From Enterobacteria phage P922, in sequence record OR999189.1: a stretch of 64,000 nucleotides of DNA, one strand, 5' to 3'. The stretch's first letter is position 1; each line of letters starts with the position of its first letter. The translations under genes and the position numbers were made by a program. This document shows positions 40,581-47,942 of this stretch, in pieces. The notes under the pieces are model-generated. The model had not been told where the DNA came from, searched no databases, and worked only from the letters and a program-made list of their open reading frames with translations.

Positions 40581-40818
40581 TTTATTGGAGATTCACTGCC
40601 TTAGTGTGAGCTAAAATCGAGGAGCCGTCGAACTGTCTGATTAATGATTTGCGAATCATTATAGTTTTAAGACCCCGACAGTTTTACGGTGTACCTCTTG
40701 AATGTTGACGAGGTTTATGGTTATCCTGTCGGTAAATATTCAAAACCTAAGTACCCCTTGAGGGCTTTCGCAGGCAATGCCAATAAGTCCTGCATTTTCA
40801 TTTAAAAGAGAATTTATA

Positions 40819-40995
40819 ATGGCAAAACAAGCTAAAGCAAAGAAAGCAGTTGAAAAGAAAGTTGGTGATTCTAAACGCGCTGGCTACAAGCGTGGGTCGA
40901 ACTCTCGTATCAATCAAACTGTTGAGAAGATCATGCGCCGAGCACGTGCGGTTCTTCGAGATGATGCTTCTCGTTTTGGTAAGCAGAAAGCATAA
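40819..40995 (+). CDS. small basic protein (58 aa)
   Basis: AAAAGAGAATTTATAATG start; Lys/Arg-rich. Confidence 0.4.
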   Translation: MAKQAKAKKAVEKKVGDSKRAGYKRGSNSRINQTVEKIMRRARAVLRDDASRFGKQKA

Positions 40996-40998
40996 GTT

Positions 40999-41029
40999 GA
41001 GGACTCCTTCGGGAGTCCTTTTTTATTTT
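40999..41029 (+). terminator. rho-independent terminator
   Basis: GGACTCC-TTCG-GGAGTCC followed by TTTTTTATTTT. Confidence 0.65.
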
Positions 41030-41105: not shown

Positions 41106-41429
41106 ATGAAAACGATTAATCTGAACGCTACAGTTAAAACTAAATGCTTCAATGGTAAATATGATGAAACTATGTGGTTCTTAATGGCAGTTGAAGGTGA
41201 TATTATTGAAGTAGAAACAACAGAAGGTATGGGAACAGATTTCACCTTTACAATTCAAGTTCATAATTTCTTTACTGGTTGGATTTATGAATTGAATACA
41301 GTAATCGTTGGAAAAATTGAACAAAATGAATTAGGTGAATGGTATTATGTTACAGCGCGCCAACGTGCCGAACGCTTAATTGAGAAGATGAAAAAGTTGG
41401 TAAACTTGACATGCAGCACTGGAAAGTAG
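41106..41429 (+). CDS. hypothetical protein (107 aa)
   Basis: AAGGAGAATAAAATG start. Confidence 0.45.
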   Translation: MKTINLNATVKTKCFNGKYDETMWFLMAVEGDIIEVETTEGMGTDFTFTIQVHNFFTGWIYELNTVIVGKIEQNELGEWYYVTARQRAERLIEKMKKLVNLTCSTGK

Positions 41430-41437
41430 TAAAATAA

Positions 41438-41910: not shown

Positions 41911-42198
41911 ATGTTTATGACTACTTATTTTGATACCCGCAAAAATTTCTGTGAAGTAGTTTTCTCTAAGGCGCCTAAAGACCTTCCTGCTCATTTGCAG
42001 CCTACCAGTGAATCGATTAAAAACTACGTTAATGTAGTCTGCCCTTTAGAGTTCCGTACTGTAAATGGGCGTGATACTCTAGCTATCACTAAACTCAATC
42101 GTGAAATTGACATTGACCCTTCAATTGCGCATGAAATTAATATTTCTGACATTGGTGGTGGTAATGTTAAATCGCACGGATTTCAGATGAGGTTCTAA
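41911..42198 (+). CDS. hypothetical protein (95 aa)
   Basis: ATG after hairpin and GAGGAAAATACT; the longer track ORF would read through the hairpin. Confidence 0.4.
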   Translation: MFMTTYFDTRKNFCEVVFSKAPKDLPAHLQPTSESIKNYVNVVCPLEFRTVNGRDTLAITKLNREIDIDPSIAHEINISDIGGGNVKSHGFQMRF

Positions 42199-42395
42199 TG
42201 AAATTCTTTTTGGGTCAAACTGTTGAATTAAAGGGAGTCGGTATACCTGGATTAATTTCTAAGGTTTTGCCTGCATTTAAATGGAGAGACGTTCAAATAA
42301 AAGAAGCTTATATTGTTTCTTGGGTAGATGGAAATGAAGACCTTCGTATGGGCGATGAATTATCTCCTATCTATGGATTAAAGGAATTAGTATGA
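42198..42395 (+). CDS. hypothetical protein (65 aa)
   Basis: TAATG-coupled. Confidence 0.4.
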   Translation: MKFFLGQTVELKGVGIPGLISKVLPAFKWRDVQIKEAYIVSWVDGNEDLRMGDELSPIYGLKELV

Positions 42396-42598
42396 ATATA
42401 ATTAATAAGATTTTTGGAATTCAGTACATTAAGGTCACATATAAAGTAACATATAAAGGTCCGTATACCGATGAACATGAAGAACCACAAGTTAAGTCTA
42501 TTATATTAGAAAAGGACCCTAACTGGCCAGTTGAATTTCGTCTTCCTTGCTATGGTCATTGGGCTGATGTTGAAATTATAAGTATTGAAAATGTCTGA
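42392..42598 (+). CDS. hypothetical protein (68 aa)
   Basis: ATGA-coupled. Confidence 0.4.
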   Translation: MNIINKIFGIQYIKVTYKVTYKGPYTDEHEEPQVKSIILEKDPNWPVEFRLPCYGHWADVEIISIENV

Positions 42599-43049
42599 GC
42601 TAGAGATAAGAAGCAATTTTAGATGGCCATCATGTGCATTAAGCAATTTCGCTCAATGGCCTTTCGTTATGGATGGTATCCAATTTGGAGGTCTCGAAGG
42701 ATTCCTCCAAGGATGTAAGGTGAAAAATGTTGAGCAGCAAAGACGTATATTTGGGATGTCCGGGCTTGCCGCCCAACAAGCTGGAAGGTCTTATGCTAGA
42801 GCTCAGGACCGTGGGACCCTCTTTTGGCTTGGAGTTCCATTTTCAAGATACTCTCCAGCATGGAAAGAATTATACACAAATGCATATTTTGAAGCAGCAA
42901 TCCAAAACAGGGGCTTTCGTGATGCATTACAAGCCTCAAAAGGAAAAGTTTTGAAGCACAGCATGGCTAGTGGTCTAACAAAAGATGATACAATACTAAC
43001 CGAAGCTGAATTTATTGATGTGTTAAACCTATTAAGAGACTCTCTATGA
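42585..43049 (+). CDS. NADAR / YbiA-like (DUF1768) domain protein
   Basis: 154 aa; SNFAQWPF...GIQFGGLEGFLQGCK resembles the YbiA/NADAR N-glycosidase family; call from pattern memory, not searched. Confidence 0.55.
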   Translation: MKMSELEIRSNFRWPSCALSNFAQWPFVMDGIQFGGLEGFLQGCKVKNVEQQRRIFGMSGLAAQQAGRSYARAQDRGTLFWLGVPFSRYSPAWKELYTNAYFEAAIQNRGFRDALQASKGKVLKHSMASGLTKDDTILTEAEFIDVLNLLRDSL

Positions 43050-43885
43050 AGCCAACTATTTTAACTGATATTGATGGAGTATGTTTAAGCTGGCAATCAG
43101 GCCTTCCTTATTTTGCTCAGAAATATAATCTTCCATTAGAACATATTTTAAAAATGATCCAAGATGAGAAATTTATTTCTCCGGGTAAACTCTTTAATTG
43201 TGACGAAGAACTTGGCGTCAAGTTAATTGAAAAATACAATCGTTCAGATTTTATTCGTTACTTGTCTCCGTATAAAGATGCCCTGTGTGTAATTAACAAA
43301 TTAAAAGAAGATTATAATTTTGTAGCTGTTACAGCATTGGGTGATTCTATTGACGCTCTGTTGAATCGTCAATTTAATTTGAATGCTCTTTTTCCTGGTG
43401 CTTTCTCGGAAGTAATGATGTGTGGTCATGATTCTTCAAAAGAAGAGCTGTTCAAAAAGGCAAAAGAGAAATATAACGTAATTTGTTATATTGACGATCT
43501 CGCTCATCACTGCGATCATGCGAGTGAAATATTAAATGTTCCAGTTTATTGGATGGCTCGAGGAGAGCGTGACAATATTCCAAAAACTGCGCAGCGAGTT
43601 TATACATGGAATGATGTAGAAAATAAGCTTTTTTCACCAAAGGAAAATAAAGAAAGTTTTGATAGTGAAAAAGCTATAAAAGATTTAATTGAGAAGATGG
43701 TTAAAAACGATTCTTTTCCTTGGAACACTACCTGGAGAACGCCTGGATTAAATCCTTATAATCATCTATATCATCCATATCAGACACATCCGTTTCAGAC
43801 ATGGAACTATATTAAACCTGGTGGCATAGAGTATTTGTATAATAGACCTACTAGTGGTGATAATATTTTTCAAGGAGCATTCTAA
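43046..43885 (+). CDS. HAD-superfamily phosphatase-like protein
   Basis: 279 aa; N-terminal LTDIDGV motif typical of HAD hydrolases/nucleotidases. Confidence 0.5.
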   Translation: MKPTILTDIDGVCLSWQSGLPYFAQKYNLPLEHILKMIQDEKFISPGKLFNCDEELGVKLIEKYNRSDFIRYLSPYKDALCVINKLKEDYNFVAVTALGDSIDALLNRQFNLNALFPGAFSEVMMCGHDSSKEELFKKAKEKYNVICYIDDLAHHCDHASEILNVPVYWMARGERDNIPKTAQRVYTWNDVENKLFSPKENKESFDSEKAIKDLIEKMVKNDSFPWNTTWRTPGLNPYNHLYHPYQTHPFQTWNYIKPGGIEYLYNRPTSGDNIFQGAF

Positions 43886-44154
43886 TGTTTGTTGTTCATA
43901 CTATTTATGAAAATGAAGGTAATACTACACGTGATTACGGCCACGTAAATCAATTTTTTAGATGCAATCCAGAATTCCGAGCTCAAAAAGACGAACGAAT
44001 TTTTAAAAAATGTGTAGAACAAGGTTTCATTTACGTCAAGCACTGGATGCAAGGAAATAAAGTTAGAACTACATATCATAAGTCTTTGCCTGAGCTTAAT
44101 GATGAATTGATTTATAATAGAGCTGTAAACCAAACCCTGAAGGATGAGCAATGA
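43885..44154 (+). CDS. hypothetical protein (89 aa)
   Basis: coupled ORF upstream of ligase. Confidence 0.45.
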   Translation: MFVVHTIYENEGNTTRDYGHVNQFFRCNPEFRAQKDERIFKKCVEQGFIYVKHWMQGNKVRTTYHKSLPELNDELIYNRAVNQTLKDEQ

Positions 44155-45611
44155 TTCTTAAAATTCTGAATGAAATAGCATCTATTGGATCAACTAAACA
44201 GAAGCAAGCAATTCTTGAAAAGAATAAAGATAATGAATTGCTTAAACGAGTATATCGTCTGACTTATTCTCGTGGGTTACAGTATTATATCAAGAAATGG
44301 CCTAAACCTGGTATTGCTACCCAGAGTTTTGGAATGCTGACTATTACTGATATGCTTGACTTCATTGAATTCACGTTAGCTACTCGGAAATTAACTGGCA
44401 ATGCAGCAATTGAGGAATTAACTGGATATATCACCGATGGTAAAAAGGATGATGTTGAAGTTTTGCGTCGAGTTATGATGCGAGACCTTGAATGTGGTGC
44501 TTCAGTATCTATTGCAAACAAAGTTTGGCCAGGTTTAATTCCTGAACAACCTCAAATGCTGGCAAGTTCTTATGATGAAAAAGGCATTAGTAAGAATATC
44601 AAGTTTCCAGCCTTTGCGCAGTTAAAAGCAGACGGAGCTCGGTGTTTTGCTGAAGTCCGAGGCGATGAATTAGATGATGTTCGTCTTTTATCACGAGCTG
44701 GTAATGAATATCTAGGATTAGATCTTCTTAAGGAAGAGTTAATCAAAATGACTGCTGAAGCCCGCCAGATTCATCCAGAAGGTGTGTTAATTGATGGCGA
44801 ATTGGTATACCATGAGCAAGTTGAAAAGGAACCAGAAGGCCTAGATTTTCTTTTTGATGCTACTGAAATCAGTAAAGCTAAAGACTTCACAGAAGTAGCT
44901 GAATCTCGTACTGCTTCTAATGGAATCGCTAATAAATCTTTAAAGGGAACCATTTCTGAAAAAGAAGCCAAATGCATGAAGTTTCAGGTCTGGGATTATG
45001 TCCCGTTGGTAGAAATATACGGTCTTCCGGCGTTTCGTTTAAAATATGATGTACGTTTTTCTAAACTAGAACAAATGACATCAGGATATGATAAAGTAAT
45101 TTTAATTGAAAACCAGGTAGTAAATAACCTAGATGAAGCTAAGGTAATTTATAAAAAATATATTGACCGAGGTCTTGAAGGTATTATTCTCAAAAATACC
45201 GATGGATTGTGGGAAAATGCTCGTTCAAAAAATCTCTATAAATTTAAAGAAGTAATTGATGTTGATTTAAAAATTGTAGGAATTTATCCTCACCGTAAAG
45301 ACCCTACTAAAGCAGGTGGATTTATTCTTGAATCAGAATGCGGAAAAATTAAAGTAAACGCTGGTTCAGGTTTAAAAGATAAAGCTGGTGTAAAATCACA
45401 TGAACTTGACCGTACTCGCATTATGGAAAACCAAAATTATTATATTGGAAAAATTCTAGAGTGCGAATGCAATGGTTGGTTAAAATCTGATGGCCGCACT
45501 GATTACGTTAAATTATTTCTTCCAATTGCGATTCGTTTACGTGAAGATAAAACTAAAGCTAATACATTCGAGGATGTATTTGGTGATTTTCATGAGGTAA
45601 CTGGTCTATGA
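44151..45611 (+). CDS. 30: ATP-dependent DNA ligase
   Basis: 486 aa; MILKILNEIASIGSTKQKQAILEK...; adenylation lysine motif KADGAR. Confidence 0.9.
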   Translation: MILKILNEIASIGSTKQKQAILEKNKDNELLKRVYRLTYSRGLQYYIKKWPKPGIATQSFGMLTITDMLDFIEFTLATRKLTGNAAIEELTGYITDGKKDDVEVLRRVMMRDLECGASVSIANKVWPGLIPEQPQMLASSYDEKGISKNIKFPAFAQLKADGARCFAEVRGDELDDVRLLSRAGNEYLGLDLLKEELIKMTAEARQIHPEGVLIDGELVYHEQVEKEPEGLDFLFDATEISKAKDFTEVAESRTASNGIANKSLKGTISEKEAKCMKFQVWDYVPLVEIYGLPAFRLKYDVRFSKLEQMTSGYDKVILIENQVVNNLDEAKVIYKKYIDRGLEGIILKNTDGLWENARSKNLYKFKEVIDVDLKIVGIYPHRKDPTKAGGFILESECGKIKVNAGSGLKDKAGVKSHELDRTRIMENQNYYIGKILECECNGWLKSDGRTDYVKLFLPIAIRLREDKTKANTFEDVFGDFHEVTGL

Positions 45612-45812: not shown

Positions 45813-45848
45813 AATTTTATAAATAGAATAAACACTAGAGAGGATATG

Positions 45849-47942
45849 ATGGAACTCATTACAGAATTATTTGACGAAGATACTACTCTTCCGATTACAA
45901 ACTTAAATCCAAAGAAGAAAATACCGCAAATTTTTTCAGTTCATGTTGATGACGCAATTGAACAACCAGGCTTTCGTTTATGTACCTATACATCTGGAGG
46001 TGATACTAATCGCGATTTAAAAATGGGCGATAAAATGATGCATATTGTTCCTTTTACATTAACTGCTAAAGGTTCAATTGCTAAATTAAAAGGTCTCGGT
46101 CCAAGCCCAATTAATTATATCAATTCAGTTTTTACTGTTGCAATGCAGACGATGCGTCAGTATAAAATTGATGCCTGTATGCTCCGTATTCTTAAGTCTA
46201 AAACTGCTGGTCAAGCTCGACAAATTCAAGTTATTGCTGATAGACTTATCCGTAGTCGTTCAGGTGGCAGATACGTCCTTCTTAAGGAACTCTGGGATTA
46301 CGATAAAAAGTATGCATATATTCTTATACATCGCAAAAATGTATCACTAGAAGACATTCCAGGAGTTCCGGAAATTAGTACCGAGCTCTTTACTAAAGTT
46401 GAATCGAAAGTCGGCGATGTTTATATCAATAAAGATACTGGTGCTCAAGTAACTAAAAATGAGGCAATTGCAGCATCTATTGCGCAAGAAAATGATAAAC
46501 GCTCTGACCAAGCTGTAATCGTTAAAGTTAAAATTTCCCGTAGAGCAATTGCGCAAAGTCAATCATTAGAATCTTCTAGATTTGAAAGCGAATTATTCCA
46601 GAAGTATGAATCTACTGCAGCTAATTTCAATAAACCTGCTACTGCTCCTTTAATTCCAGAAGCAGAAGAAATGAAGCTTGGAATTAATTCATTAGCTTCT
46701 AAAACTAAGGCAGCAAAAATTATTGCTGAAGGAACTGCAGATGAACTTCACTATGACTATAAATTCTTTTCAAAAAGTGAGGTTAATGAAGTTTCTGAAA
46801 AAATTAAAGATGTAATTCTTAATGCGATTAAAAATGAACCAACTACTTCAATAAAATGTTTAGAGAAATACGCAGCAGCTGTTAATAAATTCTTTGAAGA
46901 ATACAAAGATAAATGGCTTGATAAACATAATAAAACCCGTAAAGGACAGCCAGATGAAGTCTGGGAAGAAATAACTAAAAATTCCTGGAACGCAGCAAAA
47001 ACTAAATTCCTCAAACGAATGATTTATAGTTTTTCTGGAATTGGTGCAGGTCCAATGATTGATATTACCATTGCACGCGATGGTTCTAAATATACTCCAT
47101 CGCAAAAGCGCGGCATTAGAGAGTATTGTGGATCAGGATATACTGACATCAATAATCTTCTTTTAGGCCGCTACAATCCAGAACGATATGATGTAATGAG
47201 TGAAAAAGAAATTGAATCTGCTATAAATAACTTAGATTCAGCTTTTGAAAATGGTGACCGTATACCAGAAGGCATTACAGTTTATCGTGCTCAAAGTATG
47301 ACTGCTCCTATATACGAAGCACTAGTTAAAAATAAAGTGTTCTATTTCAGAAATTTTGTATCTACTTCTTTAACTCCTATCATTTTTGGACGTTTTGGAA
47401 TTACACATGCTGGTATTGGTCTTTTAGAACCAGAAGCTCGTAATGAATTGACAGTTGATAAAAATGAAGAAGGAATAACTATTAATCCAAACGAAATAAG
47501 AGCGTATAAAGAAAATCCTGAATACGTTAAAGTTCAAATAGGATGGGCAATTGATGGAGCTCATAAAGTTAATGTTGTATATCCAGGAAGTCTCGGAATA
47601 GCAACAGAAGCTGAAGTTATTCTACCGCGCGGATTGATGGTCAAAGTTAATAAAATAACTGATGCTTCTAATAATGACGGAACAACATCTAATAATACAA
47701 AACTCATTCAAGCTGAAGTTATGACTACAGAAGAACTCACCGAATCAGTAATTTATGATGGAGACCATTTAATGGAAACTGGTGAAGTAGTTGCAATGAC
47801 AGGTGATATTGAAATAGAAGACAGAGTTGACTTTGCATCATTTGTTTCATCAAACGTTAAACAGAAAGTAGAATCATCTCTTGGAATTATTGCGTCTTGC
47901 ATAGATATTACAAACATGCCTTACAAGTTCGTTCAAGGATAA
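45849..47942 (+). CDS. alt: Alt ADP-ribosyltransferase (packaged, modifies host RNA polymerase)
   Basis: 697 aa from second ATG; MELITELFDEDTTLPITNL... matches T4 Alt; C-terminal R / STS / EAE ART signature. Confidence 0.85.
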   Translation: MELITELFDEDTTLPITNLNPKKKIPQIFSVHVDDAIEQPGFRLCTYTSGGDTNRDLKMGDKMMHIVPFTLTAKGSIAKLKGLGPSPINYINSVFTVAMQTMRQYKIDACMLRILKSKTAGQARQIQVIADRLIRSRSGGRYVLLKELWDYDKKYAYILIHRKNVSLEDIPGVPEISTELFTKVESKVGDVYINKDTGAQVTKNEAIAASIAQENDKRSDQAVIVKVKISRRAIAQSQSLESSRFESELFQKYESTAANFNKPATAPLIPEAEEMKLGINSLASKTKAAKIIAEGTADELHYDYKFFSKSEVNEVSEKIKDVILNAIKNEPTTSIKCLEKYAAAVNKFFEEYKDKWLDKHNKTRKGQPDEVWEEITKNSWNAAKTKFLKRMIYSFSGIGAGPMIDITIARDGSKYTPSQKRGIREYCGSGYTDINNLLLGRYNPERYDVMSEKEIESAINNLDSAFENGDRIPEGITVYRAQSMTAPIYEALVKNKVFYFRNFVSTSLTPIIFGRFGITHAGIGLLEPEARNELTVDKNEEGITINPNEIRAYKENPEYVKVQIGWAIDGAHKVNVVYPGSLGIATEAEVILPRGLMVKVNKITDASNNDGTTSNNTKLIQAEVMTTEELTESVIYDGDHLMETGEVVAMTGDIEIEDRVDFASFVSSNVKQKVESSLGIIASCIDITNMPYKFVQG

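What the first reader, a model, noticed from the sequence alone, without database searches (positions are those of the whole stretch)
42585..43885. NADAR-like and HAD-like gene pair as a candidate anti-defence module
The 154 aa ORF looks like a YbiA/NADAR-family domain and the following 279 aa ORF has an N-terminal DxDG HAD motif. NADAR enzymes have been reported to reverse guanine ADP-ribosylation of DNA, so a phage-encoded copy could counter DarT-type DNA ADP-ribosylating defence toxins. The function of this phage gene is untested as far as I know.
Basis: inference. Interest (0 to 1): 0.5.

Follow-up and report, generated by a model that had tools for sequence, protein, structure and literature searches.

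The report
Known anti-DarT gene adfN plus phosphatase
The first gene is the T4 gene 30.3 (adfN), already shown by experiment to strip ADP-ribose off phage DNA and defeat the bacterial DarTG1 defence. The gene next to it encodes an uncharacterised HAD-type phosphatase that published data show is not needed for that job.

Summary
The window is a T4-like (Tequatrovirus) genome. Both ORFs are real.

**Gene 30.3 (ORF 42585-43049; true start most likely ATG 42591, 152 aa)**
- It is 98% identical to T4 gp30.3.
- It matches Pfam PF08010 (E 4e-70).
- Its model matches only the three solved NADAR structures.
- It keeps catalytic E36 and K43, the phage-NADAR histidine H123, and the C-terminal helix.
- The proposed function is already published. 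T4 gp30.3 is AdfN, a guanine-ADP-ribose DNA glycohydrolase that is necessary and sufficient against DarTG1 (Nat Commun 2025; Toxins 2024; HIDEN-SEQ 2025).

**Gene 30.2 (43046-43885, 279 aa)**
- It is 97% identical to T4 gp30.2.
- It most resembles 5'(3')-deoxyribonucleotidases and carries a disordered C-terminal tail.
- Its function is unknown.

**The "module" idea is not supported**
- AdfN alone suffices.
- T4 transposon insertions in 30.2 cost nothing on DarTG1 hosts (log2FC -0.12, against -7.25 for 30.3).
- The two genes lie 54-69 kb apart in seven T4-like contigs of 162-176 kb.
- gp30.2 tracks DNA ligase (72 of 77 loci), not the NADAR gene.

Verdict: already known, low interest.

The parts
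42591..43049 (+). adfN (T4 gene 30.3): 152-aa phage-type NADAR, a DNA guanine-ADP-ribose glycohydrolase. The mechanical ORF starts at TTG 42585; the real start is most likely ATG 42591.
   Evidence: ORF. (PF08010, E 3.9e-70). (149/152 identical to T4 gp30.3). (AF2 pLDDT 93; only NADAR structures match). (published function).
42696..42719 (+). Catalytic segment E36-G-F-L-Q-G-C-K43. E36 is GAA 42696-42698 and K43 is AAG 42717-42719.
   Evidence: Sequence read. E36 is invariant and K43 at least 90% conserved in 42 homologues. The segment aligns to the SEHYFQAQK motif of YbiA. E36A and K43A abolish AdfN function.
42957..42959 (+). H123 (CAC), the histidine that defines the phage NADAR subfamily. 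It takes the place of Glu in YbiA-type and Asp in DarT1-linked NADARs.
   Evidence: Invariant in alignment A2. The subfamily definition is quoted from PMC11543638 and PMC11125620.
43002..43043 (+). C-terminal alpha-helix of AdfN (residues 138-151). It is intact here; RB69 loses it through a frameshift and becomes DarTG1-sensitive.
   Evidence: AF2 helix H138-151. Full-length alignment to T4. RB69 truncation of 15 residues described.
42727..42954 (+). 75-aa ORF in another frame inside adfN. It corresponds to T4 gene 30.3' as annotated. No evidence was obtained here that it is expressed.
   Evidence: ORF 42727-42954. (T4 30.3' annotated as internal translation in a different frame, 228 nt).
43046..43885 (+). 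T4 gene 30.2 homologue, 279 aa: a HAD-superfamily phosphatase-like domain plus a disordered tail. Its start overlaps the adfN stop (ATGA).
   Evidence: (270/279 identical to T4 gp30.2). (phrog_420, unknown function).
43046..43630 (+). HAD domain with a C1 cap (residues 1-195). Motif I is D8-I-D10-G11 (43067-43078), motif II is T96 (43331-43333), motif III is K132 (43439-43441), and motif IV is D150-D151 (43493-43498). The helical cap (about residues 16-86) sits between motifs I and II.
43631..43882 (+). C-terminal extension of gp30.2 (residues 196-279). It has one helix (207-220) followed by a Pro/Trp/Asn-rich tail predicted to be disordered. The tail carries the short motif G-I-E-Y-L-Y-N-R-P-T (about 43823-43852).
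   Evidence: pLDDT <50 for 224-231, 239-261 and 267-279. (many homologues of about 200-220 aa lack the tail). (motif present in 15 of 57 long homologues).
43885..45611 (+). Context: gene 30.1 (DUF3045, 43885-44154) and DNA ligase gene 30 (44151-45611). These are the conserved downstream neighbours of 30.2.
   Evidence: (ligase directly downstream of the 30.2 homologue in 72 of 77 viral loci).
41406..41435 (+). Best sigma-70-like promoter match (TTGACA-18-TAAAAT, 11/12) upstream of 30.7. It may be the start of the 30.7 to 30 transcription unit that includes adfN and 30.2. It is a consensus match only.
   Evidence: the number of sites in the region is not above the shuffled expectation. Insertions in T4 30.4, just upstream, partly sensitise to DarTG1, which is consistent with co-transcription.

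Best explanation
These are two adjacent, co-oriented early genes of a T4-like phage. They are neighbours by inherited gene order and do not work as a two-part machine.

**Gene 1 is adfN (T4 30.3).**
- It is a small single-domain NADAR enzyme.
- When a host DarT1 toxin ADP-ribosylates guanines in replicating phage DNA, AdfN hydrolyses the guanine-ADP-ribose bond. This uses the conserved Glu36/Lys43 pair and the subfamily-specific His123.
- That restores a replicable template, so the phage escapes DarTG1.
- It does not bind the toxin and does not act on thymine-ADP-ribose (DarTG2).
- This mechanism is shown experimentally for the T4 protein. It is inferred for the window protein from 98% identity with every functional residue and the C-terminal helix intact.

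**Gene 2 is 30.2.**
- It is a Mg2+-dependent HAD phosphomonoesterase with a helical C1 cap.
- The fold and catalytic motifs are shown here. The substrate is inferred.
- My best guess is a (deoxy)nucleotide or another small phosphorylated metabolite of DNA/nucleotide metabolism. The reasons are that its closest relatives are 5'(3')-deoxyribonucleotidases and that it is almost always encoded immediately upstream of DNA ligase.
- It is dispensable in the laboratory and is not required for AdfN's anti-DarTG1 function.
For: **AdfN identity**
- PF08010, E 3.9e-70.
- 149/152 identical to T4 gp30.3, with three conservative changes.
- E36, H123 invariant and K43 at least 90% conserved.
- 17/42 relatives cross-hit PF08719 NADAR.
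- The profile finds YbiA.
- The Foldseek top three hits are exactly the solved NADARs 2b3w, 8bau and 8bat; the fourth and later hits have E >= 1.5 and probability <= 0.07.

**AdfN function (literature)**
- T4/T2 adfN deletions lose about 4 logs on DarTG1 hosts.
- AdfN supplied in trans fully rescues RB69.
- E36A and K43A mutants are dead.
- The purified protein removes ADP-ribose from DNA.
- There is no two-hybrid interaction with DarT1 and no effect on DarTG2.
- Independent in vitro activity is reported.
- Transposon sequencing gives log2FC -7.25 on DarTG1.

**gp30.2 is a HAD protein**
- D8, D10, G11 and K132 are invariant; T96 and D150-D151 are at least 90% conserved.
- AF2 pLDDT is >90 for residues 1-195.
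- Foldseek gives 109 hits at E<=1e-3; the 50 listed are all HAD-fold.

**gp30.2 leans towards nucleotidases**
- The only sequence-profile PDB hit below E = 1 is mouse cdN 2jao (E 0.04). It aligns DGVLxxWxSGL with DGVLADFESGL.
- 5/34 relatives hit PF06941 NT5C (best E 1.2e-4).
- 3bwv, cdN and mdN have the best target-normalised TM-scores (0.63-0.71).

**The two genes are separable**
- T4 30.2 insertions give log2FC -0.12, p 0.61, adjusted p 1.0 on DarTG1.
- 72/72 TA sites in 30.2 are hit, so the gene is non-essential.
- Only 19 of 80 NADAR loci have a 30.2 homologue within 6 kb.
- 36 of 77 30.2 loci have the NADAR gene nearby, whereas 72 of 77 have ligase directly downstream.
- In seven T4-like contigs of 162-176 kb the two genes are 54-69 kb apart (contig coordinates).
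Against: - No experiment was done on this particular phage. The function of its AdfN rests on identity to T4.
- The window gp30.2 itself hits no curated HAD model. The nucleotidase assignment rests on weak sequence signals (E 0.04 and 1e-4).
- The two genes overlap by ATGA and stay adjacent or within about 1.5 kb in roughly half of the sampled gp30.2 loci, including the most diverged relatives sampled (39-51% identity) on contigs of 160-233 kb. A conditional cooperation under untested conditions is therefore not excluded.
- The HIDEN-SEQ result is one competitive assay, on one DarTG1 system, from a preprint.
Confidence: 0.85

Rival explanations
1. Two-step anti-DarT module. AdfN releases ADP-ribose from DNA. 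gp30.2 then processes the product or a remnant, for example by dephosphorylating an ADP-ribose-derived phosphosugar or nucleotide, or it extends protection to other DarT variants.
For: - The two genes overlap by ATGA and share a strand.
- A NADAR gene lies within 1.5 kb upstream of the 30.2 homologue in 36 of 77 viral loci, including the most diverged relatives sampled (39-51% identity) on contigs of 160-233 kb.
- Both genes are present in about 1,450-1,500 GenBank phage records from overlapping host genera.
Against: - AdfN alone, expressed from a plasmid, fully rescues RB69.
- The T4 transposon screen on DarTG1 has only two significant genes, 30.3 and upstream 30.4. Gene 30.2 is neutral (log2FC -0.12, adjusted p 1.0).
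- 61 of 80 NADAR loci lack a nearby 30.2 homologue.
- The two genes are 54-69 kb apart in seven T4-like contigs of 162-176 kb.
- All genes in this cluster overlap in the same compact way, so the ATGA overlap carries no information.
Confidence: 0.06
2. gp30.2 is a DNA-end 3'-phosphatase or nick-cleaning enzyme that prepares ends for the adjacent DNA ligase. Its C-terminal tail may tether it to the replisome.
For: - DNA ligase lies directly downstream of the 30.2 homologue in 72 of 77 loci.
- There is a weak hit to phrog_415, polynucleotide kinase (E 0.002).
- The tail motif G-I-E-Y-L resembles the C-terminal S/T-L-D-F-L of gp43, gp55 and gp33. That these termini bind the gp45 clamp is from my own knowledge of the T4 literature.
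Against: - gp30.2 has a roughly 75-residue helical C1 cap. In established HAD classification (my own knowledge) such caps go with small-molecule substrates, whereas DNA- or protein-directed HADs such as Pnkp lack a cap.
- T4 already encodes a 3'-phosphatase, PseT.
- Many homologues lack the tail altogether.
- The tail motif is found in only 15 of 57 long homologues and is not at the extreme C-terminus.
Confidence: 0.12
3. The 30.3 protein is a YbiA-like metabolic N-glycosidase that detoxifies riboflavin intermediates, not a DNA repair or anti-defence enzyme.
For: YbiA is the top sequence and structure hit in the PDB. The riboflavin role of YbiA is cited.
Against: - The protein carries the phage-specific His123 instead of the YbiA-type Glu.
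- There is direct genetic and biochemical evidence that T4 gp30.3 acts on ADP-ribosylated DNA.
Confidence: 0.02

Closest known systems
T4 AdfN (gp30.3), anti-DarT factor NADAR (Johannesman et al., Nat Commun 2025; PMC11825919)
   Same: 149 of 152 residues are identical. The length is the same, and so are E36, K43, H123 and the C-terminal helix. The genomic position is the same, between 30.4 and 30.2.
   Different: There are three conservative substitutions (L56M, K107R, I125M). They have not been tested in this phage.
DarG1 / DarT1-associated NADAR antitoxins (BC4488 subfamily; Geobacter lovleyi 8bat, E. coli C7 NADAR; Schuller et al. 2023)
   Same: The fold is the same. The Glu/Lys catalytic pair and the chemistry, hydrolysis of guanine-N2-ADP-ribose on DNA, are the same.
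   Different: - The third catalytic position is His rather than Asp.
- The gene is an orphan with no adjacent DarT.
- T4 AdfN does not rescue uninfected E. coli from DarT1 and seems adapted to hydroxymethylcytosine DNA.
- Sequence similarity is detectable only through profiles.
E. coli YbiA (2b3w), founding NADAR/DUF1768 member
   Same: It is the best PDB match by profile (E 0.003) and by fold (E 1.4e-4, TM 0.66). It shares the xSNF...E-x-F-x-Q-x-x-K motif.
   Different: YbiA has Glu at the subfamily position. It is linked to riboflavin-intermediate hydrolysis and does not protect against DarT1 in vivo.
5'(3')-deoxyribonucleotidases cdN/mdN and the bacterial deoxyribonucleotidase-like protein 3bwv (Pfam NT5C, HAD subfamily with C1 cap): closest relatives of gp30.2
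   Different: - Identity is only 15-21%.
- The window protein does not reach any Pfam threshold.
- gp30.2 has an extra tail of about 85 residues that is disordered and lineage-variable.
- Substrate and activity are untested.
T4 polynucleotide kinase/3'-phosphatase (PseT) HAD domain

Membership tests
Phage NADAR / gp30.3 (AdfN) family | Significant match to the family model PF08010 Phage_30_3 | tested here: met
   E 3.9e-70, 234.5 bits against a cut-off of 36, covering profile positions 1-138 of 138.
Phage NADAR / gp30.3 (AdfN) family | Catalytic Glu and Lys (E36 and K43 in T4 numbering) | tested here: met
   GAA at 42696 and AAG at 42717. E36 is invariant and K43 at least 90% conserved in 42 homologues.
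Phage NADAR / gp30.3 (AdfN) family | Histidine at the subfamily-defining position in the last strand (Glu in YbiA, Asp in DarT1-linked NADARs) | tested here: met
   H123 is invariant in A2 and lies in strand E120-123 of the model. The definition is quoted.
Phage NADAR / gp30.3 (AdfN) family | Intact C-terminal helix (its loss in RB69 abolishes function) | tested here: met
   The alignment to T4 is full-length, 152/152 positions. The helix spans residues 138-151.
Phage NADAR / gp30.3 (AdfN) family | De-ADP-ribosylation of guanine in DNA, and DarTG1 counter-defence, by this phage's own protein | not testable with these tools
   Shown only for the 98%-identical T4 protein.
NADAR superfamily (Pfam PF08719 / YbiA / DUF1768) | Direct match of the window protein to PF08719 | tested here: not met
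   No PF08719 hit at E<=1 for the window protein. This concerns the Pfam model only and does not affect homology.
NADAR superfamily (Pfam PF08719 / YbiA / DUF1768) | Homology shown through intermediates or a profile | tested here: met
   17 of 42 family members hit PF08719 (best E 1.5e-7). The family profile finds YbiA 2b3w at E 0.003 over the catalytic motif.
NADAR superfamily (Pfam PF08719 / YbiA / DUF1768) | NADAR fold | tested here: met
   The Foldseek top three hits are 2b3w (E 1.4e-4, TMq 0.66), 8bau and 8bat. The fourth and later hits have E >= 1.5 and probability <= 0.07.
HAD (haloacid dehalogenase-like) phosphatase superfamily: gp30.2 | Motif I, hhhDxDG[TV], with the nucleophile Asp and the Asp+2 | tested here: met
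   I-L-T-D8-I-D10-G11-V. D8, D10 and G11 are invariant in 34 homologues.
HAD (haloacid dehalogenase-like) phosphatase superfamily: gp30.2 | Motif II (Ser/Thr), motif III (Lys) and motif IV (acidic pair) | tested here: met
   T96 is at least 90% conserved (Ser in some homologues), K132 is invariant, and D150-D151 are at least 90% conserved. Each lies at the end of a predicted beta-strand (E91-96, E145-150) or after E120-125.
HAD (haloacid dehalogenase-like) phosphatase superfamily: gp30.2 | Rossmann-like HAD core fold | tested here: met
HAD (haloacid dehalogenase-like) phosphatase superfamily: gp30.2 | Match of the window protein to a curated HAD model | tested here: not met
   No Pfam or NCBIfam family for the window protein. 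9 of 34 relatives hit PF00702 (best E 3.5e-4).
5'(3')-deoxyribonucleotidase family (Pfam NT5C, PF06941): gp30.2 | Significant sequence match to the family | tested here: inconclusive
   5 of 34 relatives hit PF06941 (best E 1.2e-4). The profile against PDB gives 2jao at E 0.04. The window protein alone gives no hit.
5'(3')-deoxyribonucleotidase family (Pfam NT5C, PF06941): gp30.2 | dNMP phosphatase activity | not testable with these tools
   No biochemical data were found. A literature search for gp30.2 returned nothing.
   This was tested against published data, not by my own experiment. T4 30.2 insertions are neutral on DarTG1 (log2FC -0.12, adjusted p 1.0) while 30.3 gives -7.25. AdfN alone is sufficient in trans.
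   19 of 80 NADAR loci have a 30.2 homologue within 6 kb. 36 of 77 30.2 loci have the NADAR gene nearby, against 72 of 77 with ligase. The genes are 54-69 kb apart in seven T4-like contigs of 162-176 kb.

The most novel reading that the evidence does not exclude
gp30.2 is not a free nucleotidase. It is a replisome- or clamp-tethered HAD phosphatase that works with the adjacent DNA ligase, for example by cleaning 3'-phosphate or other blocked ends, or by locally editing the nucleotide pool at the fork. Recruitment would be through the short G-I-E-Y-L-type motif in its disordered C-terminal tail, which resembles the S/T-L-D-F-L termini of gp43, gp55 and gp33. A weaker variant: it backs up AdfN against DarT homologues or conditions that have not yet been tested.
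Probability: 0.1. Interest if true: 0.5.

Novelty: already known. Interest (0 to 1): 0.15.

Why it matters
The field reached and proved the same conclusion in 2024-2025, so there is nothing new to claim for this gene.

Three practical points remain:
- All 40 GenBank records listed out of the 1,510 that carry this gene, and RefSeq T4 itself, still label it 'hypothetical protein'. It can now be annotated as adfN.
- This phage should be DarTG1-resistant, because its allele is full length with all catalytic residues.
- The neighbouring gene 30.2 remains a genuinely uncharacterised and very widespread HAD phosphatase (1,438 records). It is tightly linked to DNA ligase in T4-like phages, which makes it a modest but tractable open question in T4 nucleotide and DNA metabolism.

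Tried and rejected
- Direct Pfam and NCBIfam scans of the window proteins for NADAR or HAD models gave nothing beyond PF08010. Single-sequence phmmer against PDB gave only non-significant hits (YbiA at E 1.5; nothing for gp30.2). Profiles and structure models were needed.
- I looked for literature on gp30.2. 'gp30.2' returned no papers. '30.2' with '30.3' and 'phage T4' returned one irrelevant paper.
- I tested whether the gene pair is a conserved module by scanning IMG/VR from both sides. I rejected the idea because the strong linkage is between 30.2 and ligase, not between 30.2 and the NADAR gene.
- I checked whether the displaced NADAR gene in Cronobacter phage Pet-CM3-4 (L063) sits next to any informative gene such as a HAD or macrodomain. 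Its neighbours are small ORFs with no hits, apart from DUF7338.
- I tried to read the gp30.2 value in the DarTG2 sheet of the HIDEN-SEQ table, but the part I fetched did not contain that row. I rely instead on the paper's statement that tk.4 was the single significant DarTG2 hit.
- The promoter and terminator scan found no more sites than shuffled sequence does, so the transcription-unit statement is weak.
- I considered that the TTG at 42585 is the true start. I rejected it in favour of ATG 42591 because of the T4 annotation and the published residue numbering.
Full report
**What the window is.** The region around the finding has the gene order of bacteriophage T4, in reverse orientation relative to the T4 record. 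In window order it runs gp31, rIII, 30.9, 30.8, 30.7, 30.6, 30.5, 30.4, 30.3, 30.2, 30.1, DNA ligase (gene 30), alt.1 and alt (compared with the T4 annotation). A megablast of 42000-44200 finds 693 phage records. The best are Escherichia phage DCP2 (99.2%) and Shigella phage CT01 (99.0%), and almost all hits are Tequatrovirus-like phages.

**Checking the observation.**
- Both ORFs are present: 42585-43049 (154 aa from a TTG) and 43046-43885 (279 aa).
- The first gene most likely starts at ATG 42591, giving 152 aa. T4 gene 30.3 is annotated as 459 nt. The 152-aa translation aligns end to end with T4 gp30.3 at 149/152 identities. With that start, the published catalytic residues E36 and K43 fall on GAA 42696 and AAG 42717.
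- The second protein is 270/279 identical to T4 gp30.2.
- The stop of 30.3 and the start of 30.2 overlap as ATGA. Every gene in this cluster is packed in the same way.

**Is the first protein a NADAR?** Yes, but a direct Pfam NADAR hit does not show it.
- The window protein hits PF08010 'Bacteriophage protein GP30.3' at E 3.9e-70 and nothing else of note.
- A database search returned 95 relatives, all PF08010. Several were labelled by JGI as 'YbiA (DUF1768 family)'.
- In a 42-sequence alignment, E36, H123 and the SNF motif are invariant, and K43 is at least 90% conserved.
- 17 of those 42 proteins also hit PF08719 NADAR (best E 1.5e-7).
- A profile of the alignment finds E. coli YbiA (2b3w) as the best PDB sequence (E 0.003), aligned over the catalytic motif.
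- An AlphaFold2 model (pLDDT 93, pTM 0.89) matches exactly three PDB entries with probability at least 0.97: YbiA, the Phytophthora NADAR-ADP-ribose complex 8bau, and the Geobacter lovleyi DarT1-associated NADAR 8bat. Every other hit has E >= 1.5 and probability <= 0.07.
- The literature defines phage NADARs ('gp30.3 proteins') as the subfamily with His in place of the Glu of YbiA-type or the Asp of DarT1-linked enzymes. That residue is H123 here.

Johannesman et al. (bioRxiv 2024, PMC11257639; Nat Commun 2025, PMC11825919) mapped DarTG1 resistance of T-even phages to gene 30.3 by phage crosses and renamed it adfN. They showed the following.
- Deleting adfN makes T4 and T2 about 4 logs sensitive to DarTG1.
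- Plasmid-borne AdfN fully rescues RB69, whose own allele is frameshifted and lacks the last 15 residues.
- E36A and K43A mutants are inactive.
- The purified protein removes ADP-ribose from DNA.
- AdfN does not bind DarT1, does not counter DarTG2, and does not detoxify DarT1 in uninfected cells. The last point is probably because it is adapted to hydroxymethylcytosine DNA.

Two further studies agree with this.
- Toxins 2024 (PMC11125620) had shown in vitro guanine de-ADP-ribosylation by the T4 phage NADAR.
- A T4 transposon-sequencing study (HIDEN-SEQ) reproduced the phenotype.

The window allele differs from T4 by three conservative substitutions and keeps all functional residues and the C-terminal helix. 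I therefore assign it the same function with high confidence.

**The second protein is a HAD enzyme of unknown substrate.**
- It hits no Pfam or NCBIfam model and falls in a PHROG of unknown function.
- One hundred relatives were found, nearly all from T4-like phages. Many are only about 200-220 aa long and cover just the N-terminal two-thirds.
- In a 34-sequence alignment, D8, D10, G11 and K132 are invariant. T96 and D150-D151 are at least 90% conserved. These are the four HAD motifs.
- The AlphaFold2 model has pLDDT >90 over residues 1-195. It shows an alternating strand-helix core and a helical insertion (about residues 16-86) between motifs I and II, which is a C1 cap. Residues 224-279 are predicted to be disordered.

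On the subfamily, four signals point to 5'(3')-deoxyribonucleotidases.
- The only profile-to-sequence PDB hit below E = 1 is mouse cytosolic 5'(3')-deoxyribonucleotidase (2jao, E 0.04), with DGVLxxWxSGL aligned to DGVLADFESGL.
- 5 of 34 relatives hit Pfam NT5C and 9 of 34 hit PF00702.
- Deoxyribonucleotidases give the best target-normalised TM-scores.

**Is the pair a module?** Three lines of evidence say no.

First, AdfN alone is sufficient.

Second, published transposon data address 30.2 directly. Extended Data Table 6 of the HIDEN-SEQ preprint has a sheet 'resampling_Control_vs_DarTG1' (header, rows). Exactly two genes are significant in it.

| T4 gene | log2FC on DarTG1 | Adjusted p |
|---|---|---|
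| 30.3 | -7.25 | 0 |
| 30.4 (upstream neighbour; the depletion may be a polar effect of the transposon on 30.3) | -1.79 | 0.014 |
| 30.2 (71 sites) | -0.12 (p 0.61) | 1.0 |

Gene 30.2 is also non-essential on K-12, with 72 of 72 TA sites hit.

Third, the synteny does not support a module.
- Of 80 IMG/VR loci holding a gp30.3 relative, only 19 have a gp30.2 relative within 6 kb.
- Of 77 loci holding a gp30.2 relative, 36 have the NADAR gene within about 1.5 kb upstream. In contrast, 72 have DNA ligase directly downstream, with or without 30.1 between them.
- In seven T4-like contigs of 162-176 kb that contain both genes, they are 54-69 kb apart. One example is the 171,975-bp contig identical in length to Cronobacter phage Pet-CM3-4 (contig coordinates).
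- In such a genome the NADAR gene sits among small unannotated ORFs.
- Both genes are common across T4-like phages: 1,510 and 1,438 GenBank records respectively.

The adjacency seen here is best read as inherited gene order in one part of the family.

**Mechanism I commit to.** AdfN is a guanine-ADP-ribose DNA glycohydrolase that erases DarT1 marks from replicating phage DNA. This is shown for T4 and inferred here. gp30.2 is a Mg2+-dependent HAD phosphomonoesterase. The fold and motifs are shown. Its substrate is most likely a small phosphorylated nucleotide-type metabolite; this rests on its nearest relatives, its capped architecture and its linkage to ligase. It acts independently of AdfN, as published T4 data indicate for DarTG1.

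**A loose end.**
- The gp30.2 tail carries G-I-E-Y-L-Y-N-R-P-T. Variants of the form [ILVM]-E-Y-[LWY]-x(1-4)-[QR]-P-T recur in 15 of 57 long homologues. Other lineages end in L-[RK]-A-[YF]-[YF]-type motifs.
- The pattern resembles the C-termini of T4 gp43 (SLDFLFG), gp55 (SLDFLY) and gp33 (TLDFLL). From my own knowledge of the T4 literature, those termini bind the gp45 sliding clamp.
- This similarity is only suggestive.

**Verdict.** Novelty is 'already known' and interest is low.

Noticed in passing
window 43046-45611; loci L082-L158: The gp30.2 HAD gene is almost always immediately upstream of DNA ligase gene 30 in T4-like phages, with or without 30.1 between them. This holds in 72 of 77 IMG/VR loci and is a far tighter linkage than with the NADAR gene (36 of 77).
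   Followed up: partly
window 43823-43852 (gp30.2 residues 260-269): The disordered C-terminal tail carries G-I-E-Y-L-Y-N-R-P-T. A similar motif recurs in 15 of 57 long homologues, and other lineages end in L-[RK]-A-[YF]-[YF]. The pattern resembles the S/T-L-D-F-L C-termini of T4 gp43, gp55 and gp33, which suggests a docking motif. This is untested.
   Followed up: partly
window 42392-42598 (gene 30.4): In the published T4 transposon screen on DarTG1, insertions in 30.4 are the only other significant hit (log2FC -1.79, adjusted p 0.014). The end of 30.4 overlaps the adfN start (ATG 42591, stop at 42596-42598). Transposon polarity on adfN is the simplest reading, but a real contribution of gp30.4 is not excluded.
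   Followed up: no
window 42727-42954: A 75-aa ORF in a different frame lies inside adfN. It corresponds to T4 gene 30.3', annotated as 'internal translation in a different reading frame'. It is conserved in length here, but that could simply follow from 98% protein identity of the overlapping gene.
   Followed up: no
proteins P0104-P0107, P0113-P0118, P0120, P0135, P0187: Many protein clusters in the homology search, some named as T4-like Escherichia phages, hold truncated or fused gp30.3 fragments of 83-126 aa; some are fused to pieces of 30.7, 30.8 or other families. This suggests adfN is often disrupted in nature, as in RB69, although some fragments may be contig-end or gene-calling artefacts.
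   Followed up: no
GenBank phage records listed: In all 40 GenBank records listed from the protein search, and in RefSeq T4 (NC_000866), this gene is still labelled 'hypothetical protein' or has no annotation, even though it has been characterised experimentally since 2024. A few records.2 'phosphatase' or 'HAD protein'.
   Followed up: no
window 45846-47942: The Alt ADP-ribosyltransferase homologue is 698 aa here, against 682 aa in T4 (2049-nt CDS). I did not examine the difference.
   Followed up: no
window 40999-41020 and 41406-41435: A strong terminator-like hairpin (9-bp stem followed by a T-run) follows the 40777-40995 ORF. The best promoter-like site (TTGACA-18-TAAAAT) lies just upstream of 30.7. 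Together they would frame a 30.7 to 30 transcription unit. Site counts in the region do not exceed shuffled expectation.
   Followed up: no
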